A DNA stretch of 64,000 nt, taken from IMG/VR virus record IMGVR_UViG_3300020037_009644, positions 32,001-96,000 of that record. One strand, given 5' to 3'. The DNA is from a virus (lineage: Duplodnaviria > Caudoviricetes). The position numbers were made by a program, and so were the translations under genes. Shown in pieces: positions 7,635 to 54,552 of this stretch (positions within the stretch are counted from its first letter, which is position 1; each line of letters opens with the position of its first letter). Under the pieces are notes generated by a model. It searched no databases and was not told where the DNA came from. It saw nothing but the letters and a program-made list of their open reading frames with translations.

Positions 7635-7674
7635 AAAAAGAAATCCCCAGAGAGATTAACCCTCTGGGGATTTC
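7635..7674 (-). terminator. Intrinsic terminator of the DUF2828/small-RNA operon
   Basis: 13-bp stem GAAATCCCCAGAG/CTCTGGGGATTTC (7640-7652, 7662-7674) followed on the minus strand by TTTTT. Confidence 0.85.
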
Positions 7675-7677
7675 GGC

Positions 7678-7722
7678 GGAACGCTTTTTCTAAGCTAAGA
7701 TTGTATTTGCGGTATACGTTCC
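7678..7722 (-). ncRNA. GCAAA-motif stem-loop, copy 1
   Basis: GGAACG-TATACCGCAAATACAATCTTAGCTTAGAAAAAG-CGTTCC; shares core and layout with three other copies. Confidence 0.6.
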
Positions 7723-7731
7723 AAACTTCAG

Positions 7732-9285
7732 CTATGCTGCGATGACGATCTCCGAGAGAAGATCCTGACGAAGGAGGTTAAGCAGACCGTCGAGCGGGGT
7801 AGTTTCGGCTCGTTCCTCTTGTTTGGTTTCGGTTCCCTGGGATACCTCTTTATTCCCCATTCCGAGAAGGGTCTTCAGGTTGCTGGGATCGAAACCAGAG
7901 ATGGTCAACATTCCTTGATCCTTTAACGTAACCGGAAATTCTGAGTGTTCATTGTTGACGAACCACCAGACAAAGGTCACCCCCTCAATTCCAGCCTTGG
8001 CTAGTCTTTCCTTGGCGATTTTGGCGTTGGTTTGAACGTTGTTTCCAACCGGATTAAACTGCATGTCAGAAATAACAAGGACAGTTTTGGGAAACTCCGA
8101 GGCTGGAATTTCGGGATGATCTTTTTTGAGCTTAATCATGAGATCAACGGCACTCTCAAAATTCGTGCTCCCCATTGCGTTTTCTGGAATCTGTTTGACC
8201 TTATCGCAAAAGGATCCAGAAAGAGTTTCCATCCAAGATGTGGACTCGAACATGCAAACTTTGTTGTGAAACCATCCTTCGTTGAGATCGGCAAGGAGGA
8301 TTCCCATCGAGAGACAGATATCGAGCGGAGTTGCTCCTCCAAAGGTATTCCAACTCATCGACCCTGAGGTATCGAGGACCGGAAGGACATTACCGAGGGT
8401 ACAAGAAGCTCTAGCTTTCTCAAGCAAGCTCCAATACTGGAGATTAACCAACTCCTTCTGATACCTAGAAGTTGCTTTCTTGGCATCCTTGAGAAGTTCG
8501 AAGGGATACCCAACGAAGTTGATATCTTTGCCGGAAAGAAGGAACTTGGTAAATCGATCTTCTTGATTATGGCGAGCGATGGTTGTCTGACCATCTTTAC
8601 CTGTCTTGTGCGTAATGTTGCGGAGAGCGCGGCTGGGAATCTTGGAAAAATCAAGCTCTTGAAACCTTCCCGCGCTCATGTCTTGCTGAAAAGTATGAGC
8701 AGTTCCAGAAGCTTTCATTTTTCGATAGGTCTTGGTATTGATTCCAAGAAATTTGCAGAACCCGAGGGCGAATTTGGATCGAGCACGATCTCGCTCCGAG
8801 CGAGCTTTACTTCCCTCTCGAATGGTTGGAAGGAACTTGAAAACAAGCTGATCGTTGTTCTTAATCCCTTCAGAGAGAAGAAGGTAAATCTGATCAGCAT
8901 CCAACGTATTGCAGACCGGAGGAACCATAAGATCTTTCCAACATCCTACCCGAGGTATCAGGTGAAGATTGGGGTAAAGAAGATCCGGATGGTTGTTGTG
9001 AAGATAGACCAAAGCCTGATGGAACTCGTTGCGAATCCCGAGCCCGGTAACCTGGTTATCACATTTGGTTGGCTTTCTGGAAATCATTCGACCGTAGAAA
9101 ACCAGCTTGAGAGCCAGCTCCGGCGAGGCTGAGAAAAGCTTCTCCATGTCACGATCGGTTTCAAGTTGGCTTCTTGAAAGATAAGTTCCTGACTTGGTTA
9201 GGTATTCCACCAGGGGAGCAAGATTTTCGTCACCCATTGAAGAATTTGAGAGAGCTCCGTTGGCTGTAGTTGCTTGAGTTGTCAT
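7732..9285 (-). CDS. DUF2828-family vWA-domain protein (TROVE/Ro60-like architecture)
   Basis: N-terminal TTANGA, GCWKDL, vWA MIDAS DTSGSM, GSTNF, VISDMQF, ISGF motifs; start moved to ATG 9285, which has an AAAGGA Shine-Dalgarno. Confidence 0.8.
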   Translation of the reverse strand: MTTQATTANGALSNSSMGDENLAPLVEYLTKSGTYLSRSQLETDRDMEKLFSASPELALKLVFYGRMISRKPTKCDNQVTGLGIRNEFHQALVYLHNNHPDLLYPNLHLIPRVGCWKDLMVPPVCNTLDADQIYLLLSEGIKNNDQLVFKFLPTIREGSKARSERDRARSKFALGFCKFLGINTKTYRKMKASGTAHTFQQDMSAGRFQELDFSKIPSRALRNITHKTGKDGQTTIARHNQEDRFTKFLLSGKDINFVGYPFELLKDAKKATSRYQKELVNLQYWSLLEKARASCTLGNVLPVLDTSGSMSWNTFGGATPLDICLSMGILLADLNEGWFHNKVCMFESTSWMETLSGSFCDKVKQIPENAMGSTNFESAVDLMIKLKKDHPEIPASEFPKTVLVISDMQFNPVGNNVQTNAKIAKERLAKAGIEGVTFVWWFVNNEHSEFPVTLKDQGMLTISGFDPSNLKTLLGMGNKEVSQGTETKQEERAETTPLDGLLNLLRQDLLSEIVIAA

Positions 9286-9308
9286 GACGGGTCCTTTCGG
9301 AAGAAAAC

Positions 9309-9352
9309 GAAACACGTTTTTATGCTATGCTTTGGTTTGCTGGTTGTGTTTC
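9309..9352 (-). ncRNA. GCAAA-motif stem-loop, copy 2
   Basis: GAAACAC-AACCAGCAAACCAAAGCATAGCATAAAAAC-GTGTTTC. Confidence 0.65.
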
Positions 9353-9360
9353 AAGAAAAC

Positions 9361-9405
9361 GGATCACATTTTCTATACCAAGAGTGGGTTTGCTGTACGT
9401 GATCC
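9361..9405 (-). ncRNA. GCAAA-motif stem-loop, copy 3
   Basis: GGATCAC-GTACAGCAAACCCACTCTTGGTATAGAAAAT-GTGATCC. Confidence 0.65.
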
Positions 9406-9411
9406 AAGATG

Positions 9412-9538
9412 AAATCATTTGCAAAGATCAATTTAAAGTGGGCTATTTTGCGGTAGACCCCGCAGGCACAATATTACCGAACTTGATCACCGGGGCTTCA
9501 ACCGGCGCAGATTTAGTCTGCATCATTGCAAATGATTT
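9412..9538 (-). ncRNA. Putative 127-nt multibranch structured RNA
   Basis: 13-bp closing stem AAATCATTTGCAA/TTGCAAATGATTT; internal helices GCAGA/TCTGC, CCGG/CCGG, GATCAA/TTGATC and GGG(T)CTA/TAGCCC capped by CCGCAAAA. Confidence 0.55.
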
Positions 9539-9614
9539 TGGTCCCGCGCCGGGAGTCGAACCCCGTTGATGAAACGTGCCGATTGCAGAGAATCACCCTG
9601 GCAAATTGCGCGAG
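9539..9614 (-). ncRNA. tRNA-like RNA (acceptor stem, T-arm and ACCA end; no canonical D or anticodon arm)
   Basis: CTCGCGC/GCGCGGG acceptor stem, A-CCA 3' end, CGGGG-TTCGAC-TCCCG T-like arm, 76 nt. Confidence 0.55.
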
Positions 9615-9615
9615 A

Positions 9616-9692
9616 TGGCTCGACGTGATGGATTCGAACCATCGACCTCCGGCGCAAATGCCGGCGCTCTACCTAGACTAAGCTAACGTCGA
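9616..9692 (-). tRNA. Atypical tRNA with 6-nt anticodon loop ATTTGC (undetermined; Gln-like U1-A72/G73)
   Basis: TCGACGT/ACGTCGA acceptor stem, D-arm GCTT/GAGC, CCGGC/GCCGG anticodon stem, GATGG-TTCGAAT-CCATC T-arm, GCCA end. Confidence 0.75.
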
Positions 9693-9701
9693 TATAAACA
9701 T

Positions 9702-9935
9702 TTAGAACGAAAGAGGTCCTTGATGAGGCTTACATCCGGGATTTTCCTCTCGGACATGAGCCCAGTAGGGCACCCACTTAAAATCGTTCATTTCTTTAGA
9801 AAGACCAAGACGATAGGCATCAGAATAGGTGATGTCTTGGTTGACAAATTTATCATCGTCTTTGAGATAGATTGCCATTCCGACTGTATCCCAAGAGCTT
9901 TCTTCGATCCAAGATCTTACTGTTTGATTGAACAT
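9702..9935 (-). CDS. Hypothetical protein (77 aa) inside the small-RNA operon
   Basis: ATG preceded by GAAGGA. Confidence 0.6.
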   Translation of the reverse strand: MFNQTVRSWIEESSWDTVGMAIYLKDDDKFVNQDITYSDAYRLGLSKEMNDFKWVPYWAHVREENPGCKPHQGPLSF

Positions 9936-9963
9936 TAAATGATTCCTTCAAAAAAGGTTAAAC

Positions 9964-10010
9964 AGAACGCAAGTTTCATCCATTGAATTTTGGTTTGCTG
10001 GAAGCGTTCT
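9964..10010 (-). ncRNA. GCAAA-motif stem-loop, copy 4
   Basis: AGAACGC-TTCCAGCAAACCAAAATTCAATGGATGAAACTT-GCGTTCT. Confidence 0.65.
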
Positions 10011-10015
10011 AAGAT

Positions 10016-10882
10016 TTAGGTTTGTTTTGTTACTACTGATGTTTGGAGTTTGCCAAATTGTTTTTTAGCCCAATATCCACGTGGGGGTTTAGATAAACCG
10101 TATTTGGCAGTCCATTTGCAAATAGATTTATCAGAAACACCAAATTGTTTAGCAATCTGAGCAGATGGTATTTCCCAAAGAAGTTTTTTGAGATCTTCTT
10201 TAAGAGGAATGTTTCTAGCTTTATGTACCAAGTGACAGTTTAAACACCTGGAATTATCATCTCCTAATTCAGAATTACAATCTTGACAATAATATTTCTG
10301 TTTTAGATTTATTTCTCCATTTAATGAAATGGATTCTTTGCTGGCGCATTCTCTACACCTGCTTATTCTTTGCTTAAGCAAGCACCCGCAGCCCAAACAT
10401 TTATTATTGGGTAAAGATTCTTTTCTCTTTCTTCTGAAAGTTGGAGTTTGAGAGTGACAATTCGGGCATAATATGCGAAGATTTTCAATTCTATTGTCGG
10501 AAAAATCACCATTAATATGGTCAAGCTCTAATGAAATTGGTTTATCTTGCCAGGAATCCAAACCACATTCTGAACATTTGTTCTCAACTCCCATTTTTAG
10601 GAGTTTGTTTTTCAATGTTTTGTTACAATAGTAATGTGAATTTTCTGTAAAAATCAACTCATTAGAAAGTTGGCTTGACCTTTTAATTGGATATTTTTTC
10701 AATAGCTGAGAGGAAGTTAAAAAATGTGAGGTATCTATATTAAGACGAATAAAATGAGACCTTATCATTCTATAACGACCTTCACTAGGAACCAAATCTA
10801 GTTTGCGCAAACAAGCAGCTATTGACTCTGATTCAGATGCGGCTTTGATTATATCTTTGTCTTGTAATTTTACAACATTCAT
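10016..10882 (-). CDS. HNH endonuclease with zinc ribbons and C-terminal HTH
   Basis: LELDHINGDFSDNRIENLRILCPNCHSQT HNH motif; CxxC pairs; IAKQFGVSDKSICKW helix-turn-helix. Confidence 0.85.
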   Translation of the reverse strand: MNVVKLQDKDIIKAASESESIAACLRKLDLVPSEGRYRMIRSHFIRLNIDTSHFLTSSQLLKKYPIKRSSQLSNELIFTENSHYYCNKTLKNKLLKMGVENKCSECGLDSWQDKPISLELDHINGDFSDNRIENLRILCPNCHSQTPTFRRKRKESLPNNKCLGCGCLLKQRISRCRECASKESISLNGEINLKQKYYCQDCNSELGDDNSRCLNCHLVHKARNIPLKEDLKKLLWEIPSAQIAKQFGVSDKSICKWTAKYGLSKPPRGYWAKKQFGKLQTSVVTKQT

Positions 10883-10909: not shown

Positions 10910-10965
10910 TCCCCGACGAATTGGACGAAATTGGTTGAGCAGAAGCGCGTCCAATTCGTCGAGGA
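10910..10965 (-). other. Long leader hairpin (14 perfect bp, 18 bp with one G-U pair on the minus strand)
   Basis: CGACGAATTGGACG (10914-10927) and CGTCCAATTCGTCG (10948-10961). Confidence 0.7.
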
Positions 10966-10982
10966 TTAAGATGATCGTCTCT

Positions 10983-11011
10983 ATTCTAACGTTGACTCAG
11001 GAATTTGTCAA
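10983..11011 (-). promoter_or_regulatory. Sigma70-type promoter driving the DUF2828/small-RNA operon
   Basis: TTGACA (11011-11006), 17-bp spacer, TAGAAT (10988-10983) in an intergenic gap. Confidence 0.8.
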
Positions 11012-17005: not shown

Positions 17006-17277
17006 TCTTGATCCTGTTCTTTCTCATTTGAGATGTTTTCTTTTTTTACCATCTCCTCCCAGGTTCCGTCATGAACGTTGAGTTTGACCTGAGGATCGAT
17101 GTTGTACTTTTGATATATCGCCTGAATTAGGCTTTGCAATCTTTCTTGAGAAAGTTGCGATTTGAGATTGGCGTTGTCGAGAAGAAGCTTGGTCATTTCG
17201 ACGGTTTGTTTGGAACTCTCGTGCTGAAAGAAAAGATCTTTGAGCCGAAGAAGATCGGAGGATTGAAGTTGGTTCAT
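17002..17277 (-). CDS. Hypothetical coiled-coil protein
   Basis: ATGA overlaps with neighbours. Confidence 0.6.
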   Translation of the reverse strand: MNQLQSSDLLRLKDLFFQHESSKQTVEMTKLLLDNANLKSQLSQERLQSLIQAIYQKYNIDPQVKLNVHDGTWEEMVKKENISNEKEQDQE

Positions 17278-17507
17278 GGTAGAAGATCTTGAAGAGAAAA
17301 CTCGATCCCCAAAATTTTATTTTGTCCGAAATAGCTTTGAAGCTGTTTAATTGCCGCTTCAAAGCTAAGTAAATCAATTTTTTGTATGGTAGAATGAATA
17401 AGGATTTCATCGTCTAGATTCTTAATCCCACAGCAAAAAAGAGATTCTCCAAAGTTTGAGATGACCAGGCTATATCCGTAATTCAAGAGCATTGATTGTT
17501 TTTTCAT
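17274..17507 (-). CDS. Hypothetical protein, paralog family B (LLKNGY)
   Basis: MKKQSMLLNYGYSL. Confidence 0.6.
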   Translation of the reverse strand: MKKQSMLLNYGYSLVISNFGESLFCCGIKNLDDEILIHSTIQKIDLLSFEAAIKQLQSYFGQNKILGIEFSLQDLLP

Positions 17508-17508
17508 T

Positions 17509-17739
17509 TTACGAGGGATCCTTAACGAGAGATAGTAAAAATGAATCTCGAATTCCAAGAGAATCTTGGGATTCTAGTTTTTCCAAGATAAATTCGATCG
17601 TATCATCTTTGACAACGAAGATGTTCATTATTTCAGACTTCCCATCAATGGTCGTCATAAAATAACAATCAAAATCATTGTGTTTTAAATTTGGATAAAA
17701 CTCTAACCAATATCCATTTTTGAGAAGAATGGATTTCAT
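17509..17739 (-). CDS. Hypothetical protein, family B
   Basis: MKSILLKNGYWL. Confidence 0.65.
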   Translation of the reverse strand: MKSILLKNGYWLEFYPNLKHNDFDCYFMTTIDGKSEIMNIFVVKDDTIEFILEKLESQDSLGIRDSFLLSLVKDPS

Positions 17740-17960
17740 GGAATGATGTCCTTGATAAAAAGACCAGATGAAAGTTCATAGTTCGGCTTTATTCTTAGAA
17801 GTTCTTGACAGACTTCTGAAAAATCAAAAGAGGGAACAAATATTGCAGACGGAATGTATAAATGTCCCTCGGGAGATCTGACCGAACAAACAAAACTGAC
17901 CGGAGCATTTTCCCAAATATCTAGGCTGTATCCGTGTTTCATGAGAAAAGTTTTGGTCAT
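17736..17960 (-). CDS. Hypothetical protein, family B
   Basis: MTKTFLMKHGYSL. Confidence 0.65.
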   Translation of the reverse strand: MTKTFLMKHGYSLDIWENAPVSFVCSVRSPEGHLYIPSAIFVPSFDFSEVCQELLRIKPNYELSSGLFIKDIIP

Positions 17961-18199
17961 TGTGATTCCTCGCAAATTCTGAGCATGAGATCTCCGTTGT
18001 ATGATCTTGCTACGCTTCGCAAATAATCAATTACCGATTGAAGATTATCTTCTTGAGATAAGGAATGACAAATCTCCATAGTCTCATGGTCGAATTGTAT
18101 ATTGAAAGAGACGTTATAACCATACAATGGCGATGGCGATGTGGTAAAGACCAAAGAATAGCCGTTGTTGAGCAAAATTTCTTTATTGACAATTTTCAT
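17957..18199 (-). CDS. Hypothetical protein, family B
   Basis: KEILLNNGYSL. Confidence 0.65.
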   Translation of the reverse strand: MKIVNKEILLNNGYSLVFTTSPSPLYGYNVSFNIQFDHETMEICHSLSQEDNLQSVIDYLRSVARSYNGDLMLRICEESQ

Positions 18200-18420
18200 G
18201 ATATACCCAGTAGATCGAAGACAAGATCGGGGCACCCGCCGGGTTTTAAAGATGAAATCATATCTCTATATTTGGCAACTATTTCGTCAAAATCAAAAGA
18301 ACCGATGCTGATAGCAGATCTTTCAACATAATGACCGTCTGGCGATTCAATTGCAGCAATGTTGTTATAAACATTTAAAACGTATCCGTCTTTCAAAAGA
18401 AAGGACTCTTTCCTATTCAT
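18196..18420 (-). CDS. Hypothetical protein, family B
   Basis: KESFLLKDGYVL. Confidence 0.65.
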   Translation of the reverse strand: MNRKESFLLKDGYVLNVYNNIAAIESPDGHYVERSAISIGSFDFDEIVAKYRDMISSLKPGGCPDLVFDLLGIS

Positions 18421-18623
18421 ATCGAATCCTCGCAGATTTCTAGCATATTTCGCCCAGCTGGAGTTAAACTCCCCATCTTTTTGAGATCAGCAATAACGTC
18501 TTCGACAGTTTGCCCGGAAGCTTCGAAACCACACAGAGGCATATCGCTTTTGTTGTAAAGTGTTACGCAAGATTCTTTGCTGAAAGTTAGATAATGTCCG
18601 TCTATTAAAAGTGATTCTTTCAT
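18417..18623 (-). CDS. Hypothetical protein, family B
   Basis: MKESLLIDGHYL. Confidence 0.6.
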   Translation of the reverse strand: MKESLLIDGHYLTFSKESCVTLYNKSDMPLCGFEASGQTVEDVIADLKKMGSLTPAGRNMLEICEDSI

Positions 18624-18637
18624 GATGATTCCTTGTT

Positions 18638-18874
18638 TTATATTTGTTCTTGAACCAGAAAAAGGAGAAGCTTTCCAATCTCAGAGAGCTTAGAATAGGT
18701 ATTTAGGTAATCGGCAATTGCCTCGAGAGTCTGCTCTTTTTTAGAAAACCATCCAAGCATCGTGGTATCCCGATGGTCACCTTCGGATTTCATAAATAAG
18801 ATCTCATAAGACTCTCCCGGAATTTGATCTGAAAAAGTCAGGTAGTATCCATTAGAGAGAAGAATTTGTTTCAT
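18638..18874 (-). CDS. Hypothetical protein, family B
   Basis: MKQILLSNGYYL. Confidence 0.65.
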   Translation of the reverse strand: MKQILLSNGYYLTFSDQIPGESYEILFMKSEGDHRDTTMLGWFSKKEQTLEAIADYLNTYSKLSEIGKLLLFLVQEQI

Positions 18875-18883
18875 ATGATCCTT

Positions 18884-19174
18884 TCAAAATAACGAGATGA
18901 CAAATTGCAGATCTTTAAAGATCTCAGACCCTTCCGGCTCATTCAAAAGACAGACATAAAGGTCATCAAGAGCGGATTCCGCGGTCATATTTTCGGCATT
19001 TATTCCGCCAATTTCAAGTCTTCCGGTTAACGAATCAACAATTTCTCCATAATATGGAGCTTGATTCTCAGTAGCCTTAGGGCTAAAGACCAATTCATAT
19101 CCGTTTTTGAGAAGAAATGTTGTTTTCATGAGAAGAGCGAGTTGATGGGAGGGTTTGACAAAGGAGGTGGTCAT
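18884..19174 (-). CDS. Hypothetical protein, family B
   Basis: KTTFLLKNGYEL. Confidence 0.65.
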   Translation of the reverse strand: MTTSFVKPSHQLALLMKTTFLLKNGYELVFSPKATENQAPYYGEIVDSLTGRLEIGGINAENMTAESALDDLYVCLLNEPEGSEIFKDLQFVISLF

Positions 19175-19407
19175 GGAAAAACGGAAAGATATTGCAGATA
19201 AGATATTTGTTCGTTATCATTCAACGAATTATTCACTATCACGATTTCCTTGGCGTATTCTATGGAAAACTCTTCGCCGTCAAAGAGCTGGAGAGTTAAT
19301 TGATTGAGTTTTCCATTTTCGTCGACCGGAAGAAAAACAGTGAAAGAATGATCTTCCGAATTGTAATCGATTGTCGCGCCGTCTTTGAGGAGGTATGTTT
19401 GATTCAT
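19171..19407 (-). CDS. Hypothetical protein, family B
   Basis: MNQTYLLKDGATI; close paralog of 19421..19657. Confidence 0.65.
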   Translation of the reverse strand: MNQTYLLKDGATIDYNSEDHSFTVFLPVDENGKLNQLTLQLFDGEEFSIEYAKEIVIVNNSLNDNEQISYLQYLSVFP

Positions 19408-19420
19408 ATTATACTTTACT

Positions 19421-19657
19421 TTACGGAAAAAGAGATAGGCAATGTTGCAAGAAATCGTATTCTTCGTTCTCTGAAAAACGAAGGTCCGAAATTAAAATAT
19501 CTTTGGCAAATTCAAGGGAAAACTCTTCGCTGTCTTGAATGGCGTAGTCTATATTTGTCCTATCTTGAAATGGTTCGGTGAGCCAGATGTTGAAAACTTT
19601 CCTAGCTTCGAAATAAACAATCTTGGCTCCGTTTTTAAGCAAAAATTCCTGGTTCAT
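19421..19657 (-). CDS. Hypothetical protein, family B
   Basis: MNQEFLLKNGAKI. Confidence 0.65.
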   Translation of the reverse strand: MNQEFLLKNGAKIVYFEARKVFNIWLTEPFQDRTNIDYAIQDSEEFSLEFAKDILISDLRFSENEEYDFLQHCLSLFP

Positions 19658-19660
19658 AAT

Positions 19661-19920
19661 TTAACTTTCCAAAAGATCGAGAATGTTTTTCATCAACCTG
19701 CAAGTATCGGTAAAATTGTTGTCAGCATTATATTTGTGCAATTGGGTGATAAGGATTCTGGCTTCTGTTATTGAAGGTCCAGAATGACTTTGTTCGTACC
19801 AATAAAGAGTAAAATACAGTTATCCTCTCCATCGTAAAATTTATATCCGTACTCGGGATAATAATTCATCGAATGACCATTTTTGAGAAGAAATTCGGTA
19901 GAGTCCTTTAAATCTTTCAT
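19661..19920 (-). pseudogene. Frameshifted family B member (pseudogene or sequencing error)
   Basis: MKDLKDSTEFLLKNGHSM.. from ATG 19920; C-terminal half YFTLYWYEQ..MKNILDLLES* lies in the -1 frame and ends at 19661. Confidence 0.6.
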
Positions 19921-20165
19921 AGATCCTCGAAAAGGGAAAGGCAGAATTTGTAATAATGTGCATTTTCTGGAATTAAAAGTTGCAGTTCAAATAGCTTAGT
20001 TTTAGCACATTCAATATCTGGGATGGAATCAGACATCTGTGAAATGTTTATGTACATAACCAGTAACCCAAATGAATCAACAATTTGGCAACATCTTAAT
20101 CTATTTTCAAAGCAGATTAAAACATATCCATCTTTCAAAAGATATTCTGTCGCTTTATCGCTCAT
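19917..20165 (-). CDS. Hypothetical protein, family B
   Basis: TEYLLKDGYVL. Confidence 0.65.
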   Translation of the reverse strand: MSDKATEYLLKDGYVLICFENRLRCCQIVDSFGLLVMYINISQMSDSIPDIECAKTKLFELQLLIPENAHYYKFCLSLFEDL

Positions 20166-20431
20166 GATAGATGCTCCTTAAGAGATGATAGGATGAAGCG
20201 AGCTAGATCGTCGTCATGACCATATAGAGAAGACGTTCCATTTAGACAGAGGTGAAGATAATCGTCCAAATCATTGCCGTCGATCAAGGCAATCATGCAA
20301 TATTTGCAATTTTTATAGCCGTTGTTGTCGGTGTACAAATCCGAAGAAAACCAGATCTCTAAATGAGATCTGTAGAATTCAAATTGAACATCAACTTGAT
20401 TGGGAAGGATCATTGTTTCGCGTCTAATCAT
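20162..20431 (-). CDS. Hypothetical protein, family B (LPN subfamily)
   Basis: TMILPNQVDV..WFSSDL. Confidence 0.6.
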   Translation of the reverse strand: MIRRETMILPNQVDVQFEFYRSHLEIWFSSDLYTDNNGYKNCKYCMIALIDGNDLDDYLHLCLNGTSSLYGHDDDLARFILSSLKEHLS

Positions 20432-20440
20432 TGATAACTT

Positions 20441-20752
20441 TCATGTCTTATTGAGATATTGTTGAATTGATTCTGCTATTTCAAGTGCAAATTCAGTGTC
20501 ATCGTGCCTATCATCAATATGATTGATTAATATCTTGCGCGCAGCTTCGCGAAGAATAGAATTGTCATCTCGTTTTTCGTCCAGAGCATCAATGTCTTGA
20601 TAAAACAATATTCCTTCTCGTTCAAAATACAAATCAACAAAAGAATGCCGAGCATCAAATTCAATCTCTACTTCGATTGAATTTGGCAAAAGCAATTTTT
20701 TGGATTTAGTAATATGAACAGTCTCGCGGTCGAATGAAGAACAAGAATCCAT
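20441..20752 (-). CDS. Hypothetical protein, family B (LPN subfamily)
   Basis: KLLLPNSIEVEI. Confidence 0.6.
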   Translation of the reverse strand: MDSCSSFDRETVHITKSKKLLLPNSIEVEIEFDARHSFVDLYFEREGILFYQDIDALDEKRDDNSILREAARKILINHIDDRHDDTEFALEIAESIQQYLNKT

Positions 20753-20767
20753 TTTAAGTATTTCCTC

Positions 20768-21046
20768 TCATTTTACTCTTCCTTCATCGGCTAAATATTG
20801 TTCTACCGCAAAAACGATTTGATTATTAAAATTGTCGCCTCTATGAGATTGTTGTTGTAACATGGCAATGCTTGAGGCAAGGAGTTCGCAATGATCTTGT
20901 TGTAAGGAGAAAGACACGTAACGATATTTTTTATTACCCTCGTCATCACGGTTGAGATCAGAAGAAAACCACAATTCGACGGATTGATCGTAGTAATCAA
21001 TTTCTACTTCAATTTGATTTGGAAGAATCAGCGATGTGGTAATCAT
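20768..21046 (-). CDS. Hypothetical protein, family B (LPN subfamily)
   Basis: SLILPNQIEVEI..WFSSDL. Confidence 0.6.
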   Translation of the reverse strand: MITTSLILPNQIEVEIDYYDQSVELWFSSDLNRDDEGNKKYRYVSFSLQQDHCELLASSIAMLQQQSHRGDNFNNQIVFAVEQYLADEGRVK

Positions 21047-36443: not shown

Positions 36444-37763
36444 TTATTTTCTCTTGTCCACATTTCCAGCAAAAAACTTGCTAAACGAGGAGCTCTTCGA
36501 AGCAATTTGATCTTTGACCTTTTGAGCAGCCGAGATTGTCTCATCTCCGGTATTGATCGAAAGATTCACCTGGCGTCGTTCGGTCTTGGCTTTCATTTGC
36601 TCTTGTGCCTCCTTGACCTCCTTCTGGAGAGAAGTAACCCGAGATTCGGGCAGAGACAGCCCTGAGAAGACCGAATAGACCACGGCGCAGTCTTCGGTAC
36701 TGTCGGTCACATAAACCCCTTTAAAGAGGGTTACAGCCCCACACTTGTCCTGAATCATGGTTGAGGCATAGTTGGTCGCCGAAGAAGGAATCTTTTCGAG
36801 AACAGCCTTCGATCCGCAGACAATAAATCCAGCATATTTGCTCGATTCGAGATTGAATCCGGCGGCAAGGAGATTGCCATCAAGCTTATCGATGACGGCA
36901 GTGGCGAGAGCGACCTCGTCCTGATAATTTGCAACTTTCATTGAAGAGAAAACGCAGAATCCCTCTCCATCAAGCATGATTTTGGCGTAGTCGGTCGAGT
37001 CGAGAGCAATAGCGCTTGACTTTGAGGAAAGGACGTTGAGAAGATCAATCGGTTCGACGATGGCTTTGTTAGCAACCTCGTAGAAAGAAAGTTGTCCGAC
37101 ATCTTTGTAGATCGTCTCGATTCTAGCGTTGTCTGCACAAATGACCGATTGGACTTTCTTCTCTTGAACCAGCTTGCTGAGCTTGGCAAGAGTCGTGATC
37201 GAATTACTTTTGGTTCCGGCGTCTTCGGAATCCATAGGAAGAACAGCGATGACGATAACCGGAAGTCCAATTTTTCCAAGGACCTCGATGACCGGAGCCA
37301 GCGACCCGGCACCCGAGCCACCTCCAAGTGAAAGACAGTAGACCAGTGCTTGGGCTGTGTCAAGTTTGGTCGCAACCATTTCGTAAAGATGGTCCATGTA
37401 AGCTGTTGCAGCTCCTTCGCCAATCTCCAACGATTTACCAGCTCCGTTGAGACCATATTCGGTATGAAGCTTGTTGGTCTCGGGAATCTTGATCCCCTCG
37501 AGATCCTGAATCGCAGTATTCATCACGACGGTTTGATAGCCGAGGTTGTAGAAAACCTCCGCAAGCTTCGAACCAGCGGCGCCGGCTCCCAGGACTCCCC
37601 AGCGAATTGATTTTCGGGGCGGCATCATGATTTTAGCTGGCATATCTTCGGCTTTTGACTCTTCGGATGATTCTTGATTTTGTTTCTCCTTCATTCTTTG
37701 CTTGAGGAGGGTTAATTTATCGAGGTTAAGATCGTCTTGAACAACTGTAATAATTTCGGGCAT
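36444..37763 (-). CDS. Tubulin/FtsZ-family GTPase (phage TubZ/PhuZ-like)
   Basis: GAGAAGSKL, MNT..D, GAGK...G, tubulin signature SLGGGSGAG, LP...E, DN, N..I, D..D; start moved to ATG 37763. Confidence 0.85.
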   Translation of the reverse strand: MPEIITVVQDDLNLDKLTLLKQRMKEKQNQESSEESKAEDMPAKIMMPPRKSIRWGVLGAGAAGSKLAEVFYNLGYQTVVMNTAIQDLEGIKIPETNKLHTEYGLNGAGKSLEIGEGAATAYMDHLYEMVATKLDTAQALVYCLSLGGGSGAGSLAPVIEVLGKIGLPVIVIAVLPMDSEDAGTKSNSITTLAKLSKLVQEKKVQSVICADNARIETIYKDVGQLSFYEVANKAIVEPIDLLNVLSSKSSAIALDSTDYAKIMLDGEGFCVFSSMKVANYQDEVALATAVIDKLDGNLLAAGFNLESSKYAGFIVCGSKAVLEKIPSSATNYASTMIQDKCGAVTLFKGVYVTDSTEDCAVVYSVFSGLSLPESRVTSLQKEVKEAQEQMKAKTERRQVNLSINTGDETISAAQKVKDQIASKSSSFSKFFAGNVDKRK

Positions 37764-37791
37764 GTTATTTTCTTTTTCTTCTTCTTTGCTA

Positions 37792-38604
37792 TTATTCTTG
37801 TTTTTCTTTAATCCAAACAGCTCTTCGATCCCAAAATACCTTGGGAACCAACGCAGATAGCTCGTGAATTTTTTGATGTTGAACCATTTGCTCACGATTA
37901 AAAATGCCTCGAGCTTGATTGAATCTCTCGAGCTTGCTATAGCACATCCAATGTAAATGGAAGTGAACTGGTTCGTTAAGAAAGAGGTTTTTGGGATGAT
38001 GGTAGAGATGAGAAATTTTCCCATCCACCTTACGGTGGACAGGAATGCAATGATAGCTTACCTTACCCTGAAATGCTGGATTATGCGCAAAATGAAAGCC
38101 TTTTTTAGCTTTCCAGATACGGGCGTGGGGGTCATGCATCTTGATGATAGAGTTGGTTTTTTTGGAAAAACGATTCTCGATTGGATGCTCAATGAGGGGG
38201 CAAACCGGGTTGATCGTCGAGAGAGAAATTATGTCGCAACTCCCTCGATTCTCCTCGATGAGGGATTTGGTTCTTTTGAGAAAGATTTCATCAGCGTCGA
38301 GTTGGACGAGCCAATCTCCCTCCGAACATAAAGATTCTGCTCGAGCGAGAGCATGATTTCTTACCTCGACCTCGGGGAATGGGGCGGTCATTTGCTCCCA
38401 TGGTTGGCTATGATCTGGCGAAAATGAAAGATGGTATTTTTCGAGAACGACTTTGTCCCTTGGAAGAGATTCAAGATACTCTAGAGTTCCATCGGTTGAA
38501 CCGTTATCCAAGAAATACATTACGTCAACCCATGGAGAGTGGAACTCGTAGAGATCTTTGATGAACTCGATTTCGTTGTTGATGATGGTCCAAGAGATAA
38601 TCAT
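37792..38604 (-). CDS. Glycosyltransferase family 2
   Basis: NE...I, DNGSTDGT, RN.AL, LDADE. Confidence 0.85.
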   Translation of the reverse strand: MIISWTIINNEIEFIKDLYEFHSPWVDVMYFLDNGSTDGTLEYLESLPRDKVVLEKYHLSFSPDHSQPWEQMTAPFPEVEVRNHALARAESLCSEGDWLVQLDADEIFLKRTKSLIEENRGSCDIISLSTINPVCPLIEHPIENRFSKKTNSIIKMHDPHARIWKAKKGFHFAHNPAFQGKVSYHCIPVHRKVDGKISHLYHHPKNLFLNEPVHFHLHWMCYSKLERFNQARGIFNREQMVQHQKIHELSALVPKVFWDRRAVWIKEKQE

Positions 38605-52214: not shown

Positions 52215-53321
52215 TTACGCAGCATCGCAAAGCTCCATGATTTTAAATGTTACATCATCCCAAGAATACCCGGGAGGATTGAAAAATGGTTTAAATTTGG
52301 ATAAAAGAAATTCTATATTGTTGTAACAATACCTAAGTGTATCGACAGCCAAATCAATATTTGCAGAGAAGATTGCGTTTTGTGGACTTCCTTGGTAATA
52401 TTGCATATTGAGAGGGGCTTTGACAAGTTTGCCATCAATTAGAAGAGAGTTATTATCGTTGCAAAAATCCAAATGCCCACCATACCGAGGAGCAATGACA
52501 ACGTTGTTACAATAAAGTCCGTCGAGAGCCGGAATGTAAAAAGCTTCAGCATAGGTTAGGGTATAAATGACCTGACAAGATTTATGAAGAGAATAGATGC
52601 TTGGAACAAAAGAGTCGATTAATTCTATTTCTGGTCGATTAGGATAAAGCGAGTTTAAATCCTTGATGATCTTATGAACGTCTACCTCGAAGGCTTGAGT
52701 TATTTTTTTAGAAGAAGAGAGCCGAGCAACGAGACAAACATTATCATTGCTCGTAAATGCTTTGTAAAAAGCTTCAATGGCGTCTCGAATTCTTTTTCGA
52801 GTATGGGGTTGCCCGATAACCATTAAGAATTTGACTTCTTTTTTGGTTTTTAGCGGATATGGTTCGGCAGAGGCAATCTCGGCAAGATCGACGCCGTGAG
52901 GAATTACCTTAAGCTTGCTTTCAGGGACCCCAGATGAAATAAAAATATCTTTGGCAAATAATGATGGCGGAAGAATCAAATCTACGTATTGATCGCCAGA
53001 GCAATATTTGACGAAATTGGTTGGAATATTGGGAGCAAATTCGTAGCACCAAATCCCGAATCGATTTTTAGTTCCAGAAGAAAGGTAATTTGGATAGTTC
53101 AGCGGAGCTGTATAGCTGATCTGACAATCGTAAACTCCAGAAGGCTTGTCTCGAAGATATGGTTTAAGATCTTCGCTTAGAAAACATTGCTCTACGCCAT
53201 CGGTTGAAATCAGATCAAGATTATGACCTGATTTAATCATCGAACGAGCTAGATTTTTAGCGACGACGCTCCAGCTGTGATTTTTTCCAAAGAGGAATTG
53301 TTGGATTTTGATTCTTGACAA
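52215..53321 (-). CDS. Glycosyltransferase (GT-B, family 4-like)
   Basis: PS.F....F...G, PHGVD, RK......AF, EAF.IP.LD, GG..DF. Confidence 0.82.
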   Translation of the reverse strand: MSRIKIQQFLFGKNHSWSVVAKNLARSMIKSGHNLDLISTDGVEQCFLSEDLKPYLRDKPSGVYDCQISYTAPLNYPNYLSSGTKNRFGIWCYEFAPNIPTNFVKYCSGDQYVDLILPPSLFAKDIFISSGVPESKLKVIPHGVDLAEIASAEPYPLKTKKEVKFLMVIGQPHTRKRIRDAIEAFYKAFTSNDNVCLVARLSSSKKITQAFEVDVHKIIKDLNSLYPNRPEIELIDSFVPSIYSLHKSCQVIYTLTYAEAFYIPALDGLYCNNVVIAPRYGGHLDFCNDNNSLLIDGKLVKAPLNMQYYQGSPQNAIFSANIDLAVDTLRYCYNNIEFLLSKFKPFFNPPGYSWDDVTFKIMELCDAA

Positions 53322-53884
53322 GATTGAGCTCCGGTGCCATTAAAGGCGGAACTCAACTTTTTGCCGATGGGCAGCTTAAACATGATGCCGCCAAGTCGCG
53401 AGCCTCCCCAAAAACTCACCTGGGTGTGCTCAGCTGAAACTGGAGGAAAATTCAAAGAGAAGTTCCGGTCTTTTTGACTAGAGCTATAACTCAATGTCAG
53501 ATGAGGAATGAATTCGGGGTAATCTTTTGAGAACTCAAAACCGGCTTCAAGAAGAGCTTTCTCAAGCCCGTTCTGAAAAGAAATCAAATAGGGAGTCTGA
53601 AACTTGACGATAATCGGAATTCCTTTTTCTCCAGCAATTTCTTGAGGTATCGCCGAATCTTTGGGAAAAGTGCCCACCTCGTCCATAATGGTGTCGAAGG
53701 GGCGCTGTTTCTCCAGATAGGCAGCTGTGACCTCCATCAGCCGAGCGACCTCGCCAATCGGCAATTTTGGAAGATAGGAGAGGGTCACGTGGTAGCTCTC
53801 GGGATGGGTTTTCTTACCGGGGACCGGAAGTCCAAAAAGCACCTCAGCAACTTTCGGGGGGACGGTTAAACAAAGAATTGACAT
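53249..53884 (-). CDS. 2H phosphoesterase (2'-5' RNA ligase/Acb1-like superfamily)
   Basis: Two HxT motifs, YHVTL and PHLTL; ATG 53884 overlaps the ligase stop. Confidence 0.8.
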   Translation of the reverse strand: MSILCLTVPPKVAEVLFGLPVPGKKTHPESYHVTLSYLPKLPIGEVARLMEVTAAYLEKQRPFDTIMDEVGTFPKDSAIPQEIAGEKGIPIIVKFQTPYLISFQNGLEKALLEAGFEFSKDYPEFIPHLTLSYSSSQKDRNFSLNFPPVSAEHTQVSFWGGSRLGGIMFKLPIGKKLSSAFNGTGAQSCQESKSNNSSLEKITAGASSLKI

Positions 53885-54552
53885 TATTCCCAGTATCCTT
53901 TCCAATCATCTTTGAAATGGTTTTTCAATTTTTCCATATATGAATTTGTTTTAACCTTGCAAACAGATTGGTATTTTCCATAGCCTTTGCAAACAACACC
54001 CTCGACAACGTCGAAATTACCTTTCCTAACGTCTTCTACAAAAGAGCCATTGAATTTTCCTTGATAGATGACTCTCGCCGATCGGCAATCTTTAGCAACA
54101 TTAACAAAAATATCTGGGGATAGATACGTTTCTAGAATTTTTTCTTCTTGATTTTTCAACAAAATGAGATCAATTAAAACAACATCATGACTTGATCTTG
54201 GATTATGTTGTCCGGCAAAAGAGTCTTTTCCGAAATATTCGAAGACAAAACGAACATTGTCATAATGATTCAAATTGCACTTTTGCAATCTTGTCAAAAT
54301 TAGATCTCCATAATTCTTGAGATATTCCCAGATATAGTCTCCAGCCCACTTAATTTCCGGATGAATATTGGAAAACTCACTTTTGAAAAAATAATCATGT
54401 AAAGGATAATCCGAACGAGTTCCATACATGAAATTTTTTGGATTTTCAAGATCATGTTCGGCAACCAAACACGTCCCATCATATTTTTCGAACGCAATAA
54501 ATTTGTCCATCATTATTTCAAATGATGATGGAATTTTGCAATAGTTTTTCAT
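53884..54552 (-). CDS. ATP-dependent RNA ligase-like nucleotidyltransferase
   Basis: Motif I EKYDG, EYFG, EGVVCK, KVKT. Confidence 0.75.
   Translation of the reverse strand: MKNYCKIPSSFEIMMDKFIAFEKYDGTCLVAEHDLENPKNFMYGTRSDYPLHDYFFKSEFSNIHPEIKWAGDYIWEYLKNYGDLILTRLQKCNLNHYDNVRFVFEYFGKDSFAGQHNPRSSHDVVLIDLILLKNQEEKILETYLSPDIFVNVAKDCRSARVIYQGKFNGSFVEDVRKGNFDVVEGVVCKGYGKYQSVCKVKTNSYMEKLKNHFKDDWKGYWE

What the first reader, a model, noticed from the sequence alone, without database searches (positions are those of the whole stretch)
7678..10010. Dispersed family of four ~45-nt stem-loops with covarying stems and a fixed (A/C)C(A/C)GCAAA...AAA loop
Minus-strand copies at 7678-7722, 9309-9352, 9361-9405 and 9964-10010 have stems GGAACG/CGTTCC, GAAACAC/GTGTTTC, GGATCAC/GTGATCC and AGAACGC/GCGTTCT. 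The sequences differ but pairing is kept, which points to selection on RNA structure. Each ~30-33-nt loop has MCMGCAAA 2-3 nt after the stem, then a variable segment, a T(A/G)G-containing element and an A-run. Three copies are flanked by TCTT and GTTT, which could be processing signals. They bracket the DUF2828 gene on both sides, so they are unlikely to be simple terminators or a single riboswitch. Loop segments echo tRNA parts: TAGCTTAG also occurs at the D-arm of the neighbouring tRNA, and CACTCTTGGTA resembles a Thr(GGT) anticodon arm. The loops could therefore be tRNA-fragment mimics or short guides (inference).
Basis: partly seen in the sequence, partly recalled or inferred. Interest (0 to 1): 0.85.

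Follow-up and report, generated by a model that had tools for sequence, protein, structure and literature searches.

The report
Phage Ro60-like protein's partner RNAs
A large phage carries four small RNA genes that share one "handle" (a 7-pair helix next to the letters CAGCA) around the gene for a ring protein shaped like the RNA-binding autoantigen Ro60; the pairing recurs in many phages and some bacteria, has no Rfam family, and looks like the unexplained Class I RNAs said to be unique to social amoebae.

Summary
The four stem-loops are real. They belong to a widespread small-RNA family: 7-bp helix, 3-nt linker, C(A/C)GCA, free loop, then G. A model built only from other genomes ranks these four copies first in the window. 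A sister phage (gene 98% identical) shows compensatory stem changes in two copies, while the proposed tRNA-mimic and TAG loop features are lost. The neighbouring DUF2828/DUF7788 protein is predicted to have the Ro60 fold (Z 21.6). Of contigs found by the RNA pattern alone, 63 of 77 encode that protein family, against 1 of 27 controls. Best reading: Y-RNA-like ligands of a Ro60-fold protein, with a handle unlike the Y RNA motif; the leader copy may double as an operator. Binding and expression are inferred, not shown. The nearest Rfam model is Dictyostelium Class I RNA, below its cut-off. The scan has noted this family on other DNA (57 notes). It may be the 'YrlC' I recall from Burroughs and Aravind 2016, which I could not read.

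The parts
9964..10010 (-). Handle RNA copy A: 7-bp clamp helix, 3-nt linker, CAGCAAA, variable loop; G at 9963
   Evidence: 34.4 bits, E 6e-5 with model R1 built from other genomes; weak Rfam RF01414 hit, 23.1 bits
9361..9405 (-). Handle RNA copy B
   Evidence: 31.2 bits; A-U to G-C compensatory change in sister phage L352
9309..9352 (-). Handle RNA copy C, ending 24 nt before the DUF2828 start codon (possible operator)
   Evidence: 19.9 bits; stem identical, loop 6 nt shorter in L352
7678..7722 (-). Handle RNA copy D (CCGCAAA variant), between the stop codon and the terminator
   Evidence: 25.9 bits; G-C to A-U compensatory change, U.G to C-G, and CCGCA to CAGCA in L352
7732..9285 (-). DUF2828 + DUF7788 protein, 517 aa, predicted Ro60 fold (helical ring + vWA with MIDAS motif); ATG at 9285 with a Shine-Dalgarno-like AAAGGA at 9297-9292
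   Evidence: Pfam, PHROG 850 RNA-binding protein, AlphaFold pLDDT 88.6 (39), Ro60 top hits Z 21.6 over 414 residues, Foldseek, invariant D305 S307 S309 T374 D407 (19)
9616..9692 (-). tRNA-like gene with CCA and a 6-nt anticodon loop (Lys-like body)
   Evidence: ARAGORN tRNA-???; Rfam tRNA 55.2 bits; 82% to phage tRNA-Lys (87)
9539..9614 (-). tRNA-like element with acceptor stem, T-like arm and CCA, no normal D or anticodon arm
   Evidence: sequence and fold (z -0.95: weak on energy); not called by ARAGORN or Rfam
9412..9538 (-). 127-nt structured RNA closed by a 13-bp stem; holds a fifth CCGCAAA without the clamp helix; identity unresolved
   Evidence: fold z -3.6 for 9405-9545; no model hit; no relative found
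7640..7674 (-). Intrinsic-terminator-like hairpin (15 bp + U run) closing the unit
10983..11011 (-). Sigma-70-like promoter (11 of 12 matches), the likely start of the unit, upstream of an HNH gene (10016-10882)
   Evidence: consensus match only

Best explanation
The four elements are small non-coding RNAs (about 45-50 nt) of one family and are the Y-RNA-like ligands of the Ro60-fold DUF2828 protein in the same transcription unit. The clamp helix, the unpaired CAGCA and the 3' G form the protein-binding handle; the loop is a free module. The unit is probably transcribed from the promoter at 11011 to the terminator at 7640 and cut up with help from the interspersed tRNA-like elements. As with Ro60 and Y RNA, the bound RNA most likely gates the ring or tethers it to a partner, and the particle protects or handles damaged RNA during infection. 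The copy just before the start codon probably also lets the protein limit its own translation. Shown: structure under selection, family, co-occurrence. Predicted: fold. Inferred: expression, processing, binding, gating, autoregulation, anti-defence role.
For: Sites chosen by sequence alone near DUF2828 genes form a 6+ bp stem in 69% of cases, against 13% after swapping arms between loci; motif 202 sense vs 27 antisense. All 7 pairs show changes on both sides, 96% of cells paired (alignment fitted to the structure). Orthologous copies in L352 show two compensatory changes and one U.G to C-G change while loops drift. RNA-only scan: at least 115 viral hits vs 12 and 15 for controls; 63 of 77 such contigs encode DUF7788 (22 of 24 near-complete) vs 1 of 27. 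All 12 Foldseek hits under E 0.001 are Ro60 structures (also 47). Copies lie upstream, downstream or among tRNAs, which fits free RNAs. In a cluster-L mycobacteriophage (L204) one handle encloses a permuted tRNA-like module, as YrlA does (62, 83, by eye). The homolog Bas63 gp130 (27% identity) counters the Ppl defence (PMC11482910), and its phage has handle copies in the adjacent tRNA array. In 39 of 58 loci with upstream copies the last copy ends within 55 nt of the predicted start codon or overlaps it.
Against: The RNAs lack the Y RNA motif GNCGAA in the upstream RNA cluster (105) and YrlA does not hit. Bas63 gp130 rescues T7 on Ppl from a plasmid or from the T7 genome, apparently without its RNAs, so the RNAs may not be needed for that activity. 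Many DUF2828 loci gave no copy within 700 nt (98 loci had one). Co-occurrence counts include related phages, and the control contigs are shorter (37 of 40 vs 1 of 10 at 40 kb or more).
Confidence: 0.7

Rival explanations
1. The elements act only in cis, as operators or stabilising elements on the DUF2828 mRNA, and are never released as small RNAs.
For: Copy C ends 24 nt before the ATG and copy D lies between stop codon and terminator; in 39 of 58 loci the last upstream copy is within 55 nt of the start, and in L206 and L091 the 3' arm covers the start codon.
Against: Copies also lie in tandem arrays, downstream of the gene, and among tRNA genes far from the gene (34, 86, 104, 118); copy A is 680 nt upstream behind other genes.
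Confidence: 0.12
2. The handle is a processing or stabilising signal for tRNA arrays, read by a host nuclease or by the DUF2828 protein, rather than a stable ligand.
For: Copies often abut tRNAs or tRNA-like genes (L022, L089, L091, L003, L203); RNA-first loci are rich in tRNAs.
Against: Copies A, C and D here do not abut a tRNA; most tRNAs in those arrays have no handle; the motif tracks the protein gene.
Confidence: 0.07
3. One reading: the loops are tRNA-fragment mimics or short guides, for example decoys for anticodon nucleases.
For: Family-wide, anticodon-like 7-nt loops are modestly enriched (31 of 184 vs 17.4 +/- 4.0 in position-preserving shuffles). Copies B and D differ from the sister phage at about 20% and 30% of sites, against 5% at fourfold sites of the gene (114, 115, 119). 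Three anticodon-defective tRNA-like elements lie in the same unit.
Against: None of the four loops here has a closed anticodon-type hairpin; the cited lookalikes are lost in the sister phage; no above-chance complement in the record; the fast change can be phage mosaicism, since all five amino-acid changes sit near the gene ends.
Confidence: 0.08
4. Selfish or neutral DNA repeats, or single-stranded DNA signals.
For: An HNH endonuclease gene lies directly upstream.
Against: Copies share pairing, not sequence; G.U pairs are used; strict strand bias; the link is to DUF2828, not HNH.
Confidence: 0.03

Closest known systems
Ro60/Rsr (TROVE + vWA) with Y RNAs: bacterial and phage YrlA/YrlB (Chen et al. 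2014, PMC4201824; Rfam RF02553, RF02565) and Thermus phage phiLo Ro60-Yrl (PMC12135203)
   Same: Ro60-fold ring with MIDAS; several small RNAs encoded beside the gene on the same strand; ends joined by a helix with a short conserved motif on the 5' side; exchangeable second module; tRNA-like neighbours.
   Different: Protein is DUF2828/DUF7788, not Pfam TROVE, 12-15% identical in structural alignment. RNA motif is an unpaired CAGCA after a 7-bp helix, not GNCGAA in a bulged helix. RNAs here are about 45 nt with no tRNA-like domain. No YrlA hit.
Dictyostelium Class I RNAs (Rfam RF01414; Kjellin et al. 2021, PMC7919456)
   Same: 42-65 nt, short stem joining the ends with structure but not sequence kept, unpaired conserved motif ending in CAGCAA next to the 5' arm, variable rest; many family members also start AAG and end CUGU. 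Best non-tRNA Rfam match for handle copies, up to 39.3 bits (E 5e-4).
   Different: Below the gathering score of 41.5 (23.1 for copy A). Phage host; no DUSE promoter; ends here are less AAG/CUGU-like. Known Class I partner is the RRM protein Rnp1A; the paper reports the class as unique to dictyostelids. A Dictyostelium DUF2828 gene was not tested.
Bas63 gp130 (Felixounavirus; PhageMaP preprint PMC11482910)
   Same: Homologous protein (27% identity, E 2e-44), noted as Ro60-like, upstream of a tRNA array that holds handle copies.
   Different: The authors guessed that some annotated tRNAs are Y RNAs and did not identify this motif in the passages I read. The anti-Ppl effect is shown for that protein only.
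'YrlC' of Burroughs and Aravind 2016 (NAR 44:8525) - recalled from memory, paper not held
   Same: As I recall, a predicted Y-like RNA beside divergent Ro-related genes in Firmicutes, Fusobacteria and Mimivirus, lineages where DUF2828 occurs.
   Different: Could not be checked. If it is this family, the RNA was predicted in 2016 and this is a new member; the Class I link would remain unreported in the library searched.

Membership tests
Y RNA (YrlA/YrlB/Yrn) | GNCGAAN0-1G Ro-binding motif near the 5' end | tested here: not met
   None in 9286-10030; one GCCGAA lies just outside copy D's 3' arm
Y RNA (YrlA/YrlB/Yrn) | Match to Rfam YrlA or YrlB | tested here: not met
   No YrlA hit in the genome record; YrlB 18.7 bits vs 97, inside an ORF (7)
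Y RNA (YrlA/YrlB/Yrn) | Encoded within 4 kb of a Ro60-type gene on the same strand | tested here: met
   Ro60 fold by structure, though not the TROVE Pfam family (102)
Y RNA (YrlA/YrlB/Yrn) | tRNA-like effector domain within the RNA (YrlA) | tested here: not met
   Absent from the four copies; seen by eye in a homolog, L204
Y RNA (YrlA/YrlB/Yrn) | Bound by the Ro protein in vivo | not testable with these tools
   Needs pull-down or EMSA
Ro60/TROVE proteins | Helical ring closed by a vWA domain with MIDAS | tested here: met
   Predicted model, Z 21.6, rmsd 4.2, 414 residues to 1yvp; DxSxS, T and D invariant
Ro60/TROVE proteins | Pfam TROVE (PF05731) or sequence match to solved Ro60 | tested here: not met
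   No TROVE hit at E 10 (102); no PDB sequence hit at E 1 (12)
Dictyostelium Class I RNA | 42-65 nt, short terminal stem with structure kept | tested here: met
   44-47 nt, 7-bp covarying helix (8, 95, 114, 115)
Dictyostelium Class I RNA | Conserved 11-nt motif next to the 5' arm | tested here: inconclusive
   CAGCAA core shared; copy A aligns to most of the motif; linkers differ in B-D
Dictyostelium Class I RNA | Rfam gathering score 41.5 | tested here: not met
   23.1 here; up to 39.3 in homologs; none over cut-off in 18 further loci
Dictyostelium Class I RNA | DUSE promoter, dictyostelid host, Rnp1A binding | not tested
   The record is a phage, so host differs; DUSE and binding not examined
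YrlC (recalled) | Match to the published YrlC alignment | not testable with these tools
   Paper not held; no paper with the term in the library

The most novel reading that the evidence does not exclude
DUF2828 proteins and helix-CAGCA RNAs form a second Ro-type RNP lineage with its own recognition code, shared by phages, bacteria and giant viruses, and Dictyostelium Class I RNAs are its eukaryotic members. Class I RNAs would then be ligands of an amoebal DUF2828 protein, not a dictyostelid invention, and the fast-changing phage loops would tune an anti-defence particle.
Probability: 0.35. Interest if true: 0.88.

Novelty: new variant of a known kind. Interest (0 to 1): 0.7.

Why it matters
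It names the likely RNA partner of a Ro60-like protein family found in 692 cultured-phage records, one member of which already has an anti-defence phenotype in a tractable E. coli phage. The handle differs from the Y RNA motif, so it would be a second way for a Ro ring to read RNA. The likeness to Class I RNAs makes a 20-year-old question testable: whether those abundant amoebal RNAs bind a DUF2828 protein. This locus adds a clean piece of evidence: orthologous copies in a near-identical phage keep the helix by compensatory change while the loops drift.

Tried and rejected
tRNA-mimic and guide loops for these four copies: rejected. T(A/G)G element and TCTT flank as family features: rejected; GTTT is partly general (G after the helix in 90% or more of aligned copies). 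Fifth motif at about 9453 as a circularly permuted handle: not supported (5 cases vs 4.1 expected; constrained fold 8 kcal/mol worse). No relatives found for the 127-nt RNA. Single-protein locus search found nothing; the alignment did. No longer fused forms found (weak evidence). Dictyostelium DUF2828: not reached; only a Vannella (Amoebozoa) UniRef homolog appeared, origin unverified. Papers not held: Burroughs and Aravind 2016, the Wolin reviews, Avesson 2011. Paper searches for DUF2828, YrlC, ACAGCAA and Y RNA + Mimivirus found no description of the RNA. No complex prediction: the tool takes no RNA.

Full report
Observation. The window is part of a 153-kb virus record, estimated 36% complete, with tubulin, NadA, ribonucleotide-reductase-like and tRNA genes, so a large tailed phage. 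Motif plus stem occurs 0.38 times per shuffled window against four here. In register, each copy is a 7-bp helix, a 3-nt linker, C(A/C)GCAAA, a 20-23-nt variable stretch, the 3' arm and a G.

Context. On the minus strand a good sigma-70-like promoter at 11011 precedes an HNH gene, copy A, a 77-aa ORF, two CCA-ending tRNA-like elements with defective anticodon arms, a 127-nt structured RNA, copies B and C, the DUF2828 gene, copy D and a 15-bp terminator. That this is one transcription unit is inferred from the layout.

The protein. It matches DUF2828 and DUF7788 and PHROG 850, 'RNA-binding protein'. It has no sequence match in the PDB and no TROVE hit. The AlphaFold model (pLDDT 88.6) aligns over its whole length to Ro60: the top ten VIA-align rows are Ro60/Rsr structures (Z 21.6 to 14.1, next fold 10.7) and all 12 Foldseek hits under E 0.001 are Ro60. 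The MIDAS residues are invariant in 55 homologs. Mycobacteriophage homologs are annotated 'Ro-like RNA binding protein'.

The family. Around 184 distinct homologous loci the same pattern occurs 100 times on the gene's strand, 16 times on the other and 6-22 times in shuffles, mostly within 500 nt of the gene. To avoid selecting on pairing I chose sites by sequence alone: 69% near the gene form a stem of 6 or more bp, 13% do after swapping arms between loci. A covariance model built without the window's copies ranks them first to fourth in the window. In the model-fitted alignment of 99 copies all seven pairs change on both sides (this count leans towards the structure). Starting from the RNA instead, one stem variant gave at least 115 viral hits against 12 for a non-complementary arm and 15 for a scrambled motif. 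Of the contigs searched, 63 of 77 encode DUF7788 (22 of 24 near-complete), against 1 of 27 controls; for contigs of 40 kb or more in the first batch, 37 of 40 against 1 of 10. Related phages inflate these counts. Members occur in phages, bacterial genome bins and giant-virus contigs.

Sister phage. Contig L352 carries a gene 98.3% identical in DNA, with 5% change at fourfold sites. Its copy B has an A-U to G-C pair change. Copy D has G-C to A-U, U.G to C-G, and CCGCA back to CAGCA. Copy C has the same stem and a loop 6 nt shorter. The Thr-arm lookalike, the D-arm match and copy C's TAG are all gone. Copies B and D differ at roughly 20% and 30% of sites, far more than the gene. This may be diversifying selection or simply mosaic flanks; the five amino-acid changes all lie near the gene ends, which favours mosaicism.

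T(A/G)G is at chance level in 184 loops and TCTT precedes 4 of 184. The best loop-to-tRNA match, 9 nt, is reached in about 8% of shuffles. Loops have no above-chance complement in the record. Family-wide, anticodon-like hairpins are modestly enriched (31 vs 17), and one mycobacteriophage copy encloses a permuted tRNA-like module (by eye), so some members may carry tRNA parts; these four do not.

Mechanism. By analogy with Ro60 and Y RNA (PMC4201824; PMC12135203), the fixed handle is the protein-binding site and the loop a free module. Back-to-back handle and tRNA-like genes in close relatives (L022, L089, L091, L003) suggest release by tRNA processing. In 39 of 58 loci with upstream copies the last one ends within 55 nt of the predicted start codon or overlaps it (24 nt here), which suggests autoregulation as well. 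The homolog Bas63 gp130 (27% identity) counters the Ppl defence and does so when moved alone to a plasmid or to T7 (PMC11482910). Bas63 has handle copies in its tRNA array. So the RNA is more likely a gate or tether than a required guide. All of this is inference; no expression data could be obtained.

Comparison with known families. No Rfam family reaches its cut-off on any copy. The Y RNA motif and YrlA are absent, so these are not members of the Y RNA families although they probably work like them. The best non-tRNA match is Dictyostelium Class I RNA: 23.1 bits for copy A, up to 39.3 for a cyanophage copy, cut-off 41.5. Kjellin et al. describe the same design and report the class as unique to dictyostelids. 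Whether this is homology or convergence is open; I could not test for a Dictyostelium DUF2828 gene, and saw only a Vannella homolog. From memory, Burroughs and Aravind (2016) predicted a 'YrlC' RNA beside divergent Ro-like genes in Firmicutes, Fusobacteria and Mimivirus. The paper is not held. I put it at about even odds that YrlC is this family.

Earlier notes. I reached the Ro60-fold and Class I reading before opening the scan's notes. They show the family was seen 57 times in at least 51 genomes; that is repetition, not support. One note gave the PhageMaP lead, which I checked.

Verdict. A real member of a widespread structured-RNA family with no Rfam entry, tied to a Ro60-fold phage protein. 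New variant of a known kind (Ro-Y RNP); interest 0.7, held down by missing binding data and the unverified YrlC precedent.

Noticed in passing
window 9616-9692 (-): tRNA with CCA and normal arms but a 6-nt anticodon loop around UUU; 82% like phage tRNA-Lys. Possibly a nuclease-resistant decoy or a processing spacer.
   Followed up: partly
window 9412-9538 (-): 127-nt RNA with a 13-bp closing stem; one hairpin looks like a tRNA-Tyr anticodon arm lacking two anticodon bases (from memory of E. coli tRNA-Tyr); a possible H-type pseudoknot covers the fifth CCGCAAA. No relatives found.
   Followed up: partly
L022 2638-2948, L089 343-669, L091 30-528, L003 2458-2747: Handle RNAs alternate back to back with tRNA-like genes, several with altered anticodon arms, upstream of close DUF2828 relatives.
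   Followed up: partly
L204 3530-3665 (Mycobacterium phage BigCheese): A handle encloses a circularly permuted tRNA-like module (anticodon arm, T arm, capped acceptor stem, D arm), like YrlA but with the CAGCA handle.
   Followed up: partly
L206 1935-1984, L091 480-528: The handle's loop holds the ribosome-binding site and its 3' arm covers the DUF2828 start codon: the clearest operator-like cases.
   Followed up: partly
L163 4600-5330, L091 94-212: tRNA bodies with long inserts in the anticodon arm that contain a hairpin followed by CAGCA.
   Followed up: no
L205 435-986 (Listeria phage P100): ROOL RNA match (86 bits, cut-off 99.1) about 1 kb upstream of two handle copies and the DUF2828 gene.
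   Followed up: no
window 17274-21046 (-): Run of small 70-100-aa paralogous ORFs sharing an N-terminal LLKNGY-like motif.
   Followed up: no
window 53249-54552 (-): A 2H phosphoesterase (LigT/Acb1-like) gene next to a 222-aa ORF that looks like an RNA ligase by eye (no family hit); possible RNA-repair genes in the same phage.
   Followed up: partly
window 36444-38024 (-): Tubulin/PhuZ-like gene with a TubZ-like C-terminal domain.
   Followed up: partly
window 10930-10975 (-): Hairpin between the promoter and the HNH gene (inverted repeat of about 12 bp).
   Followed up: no
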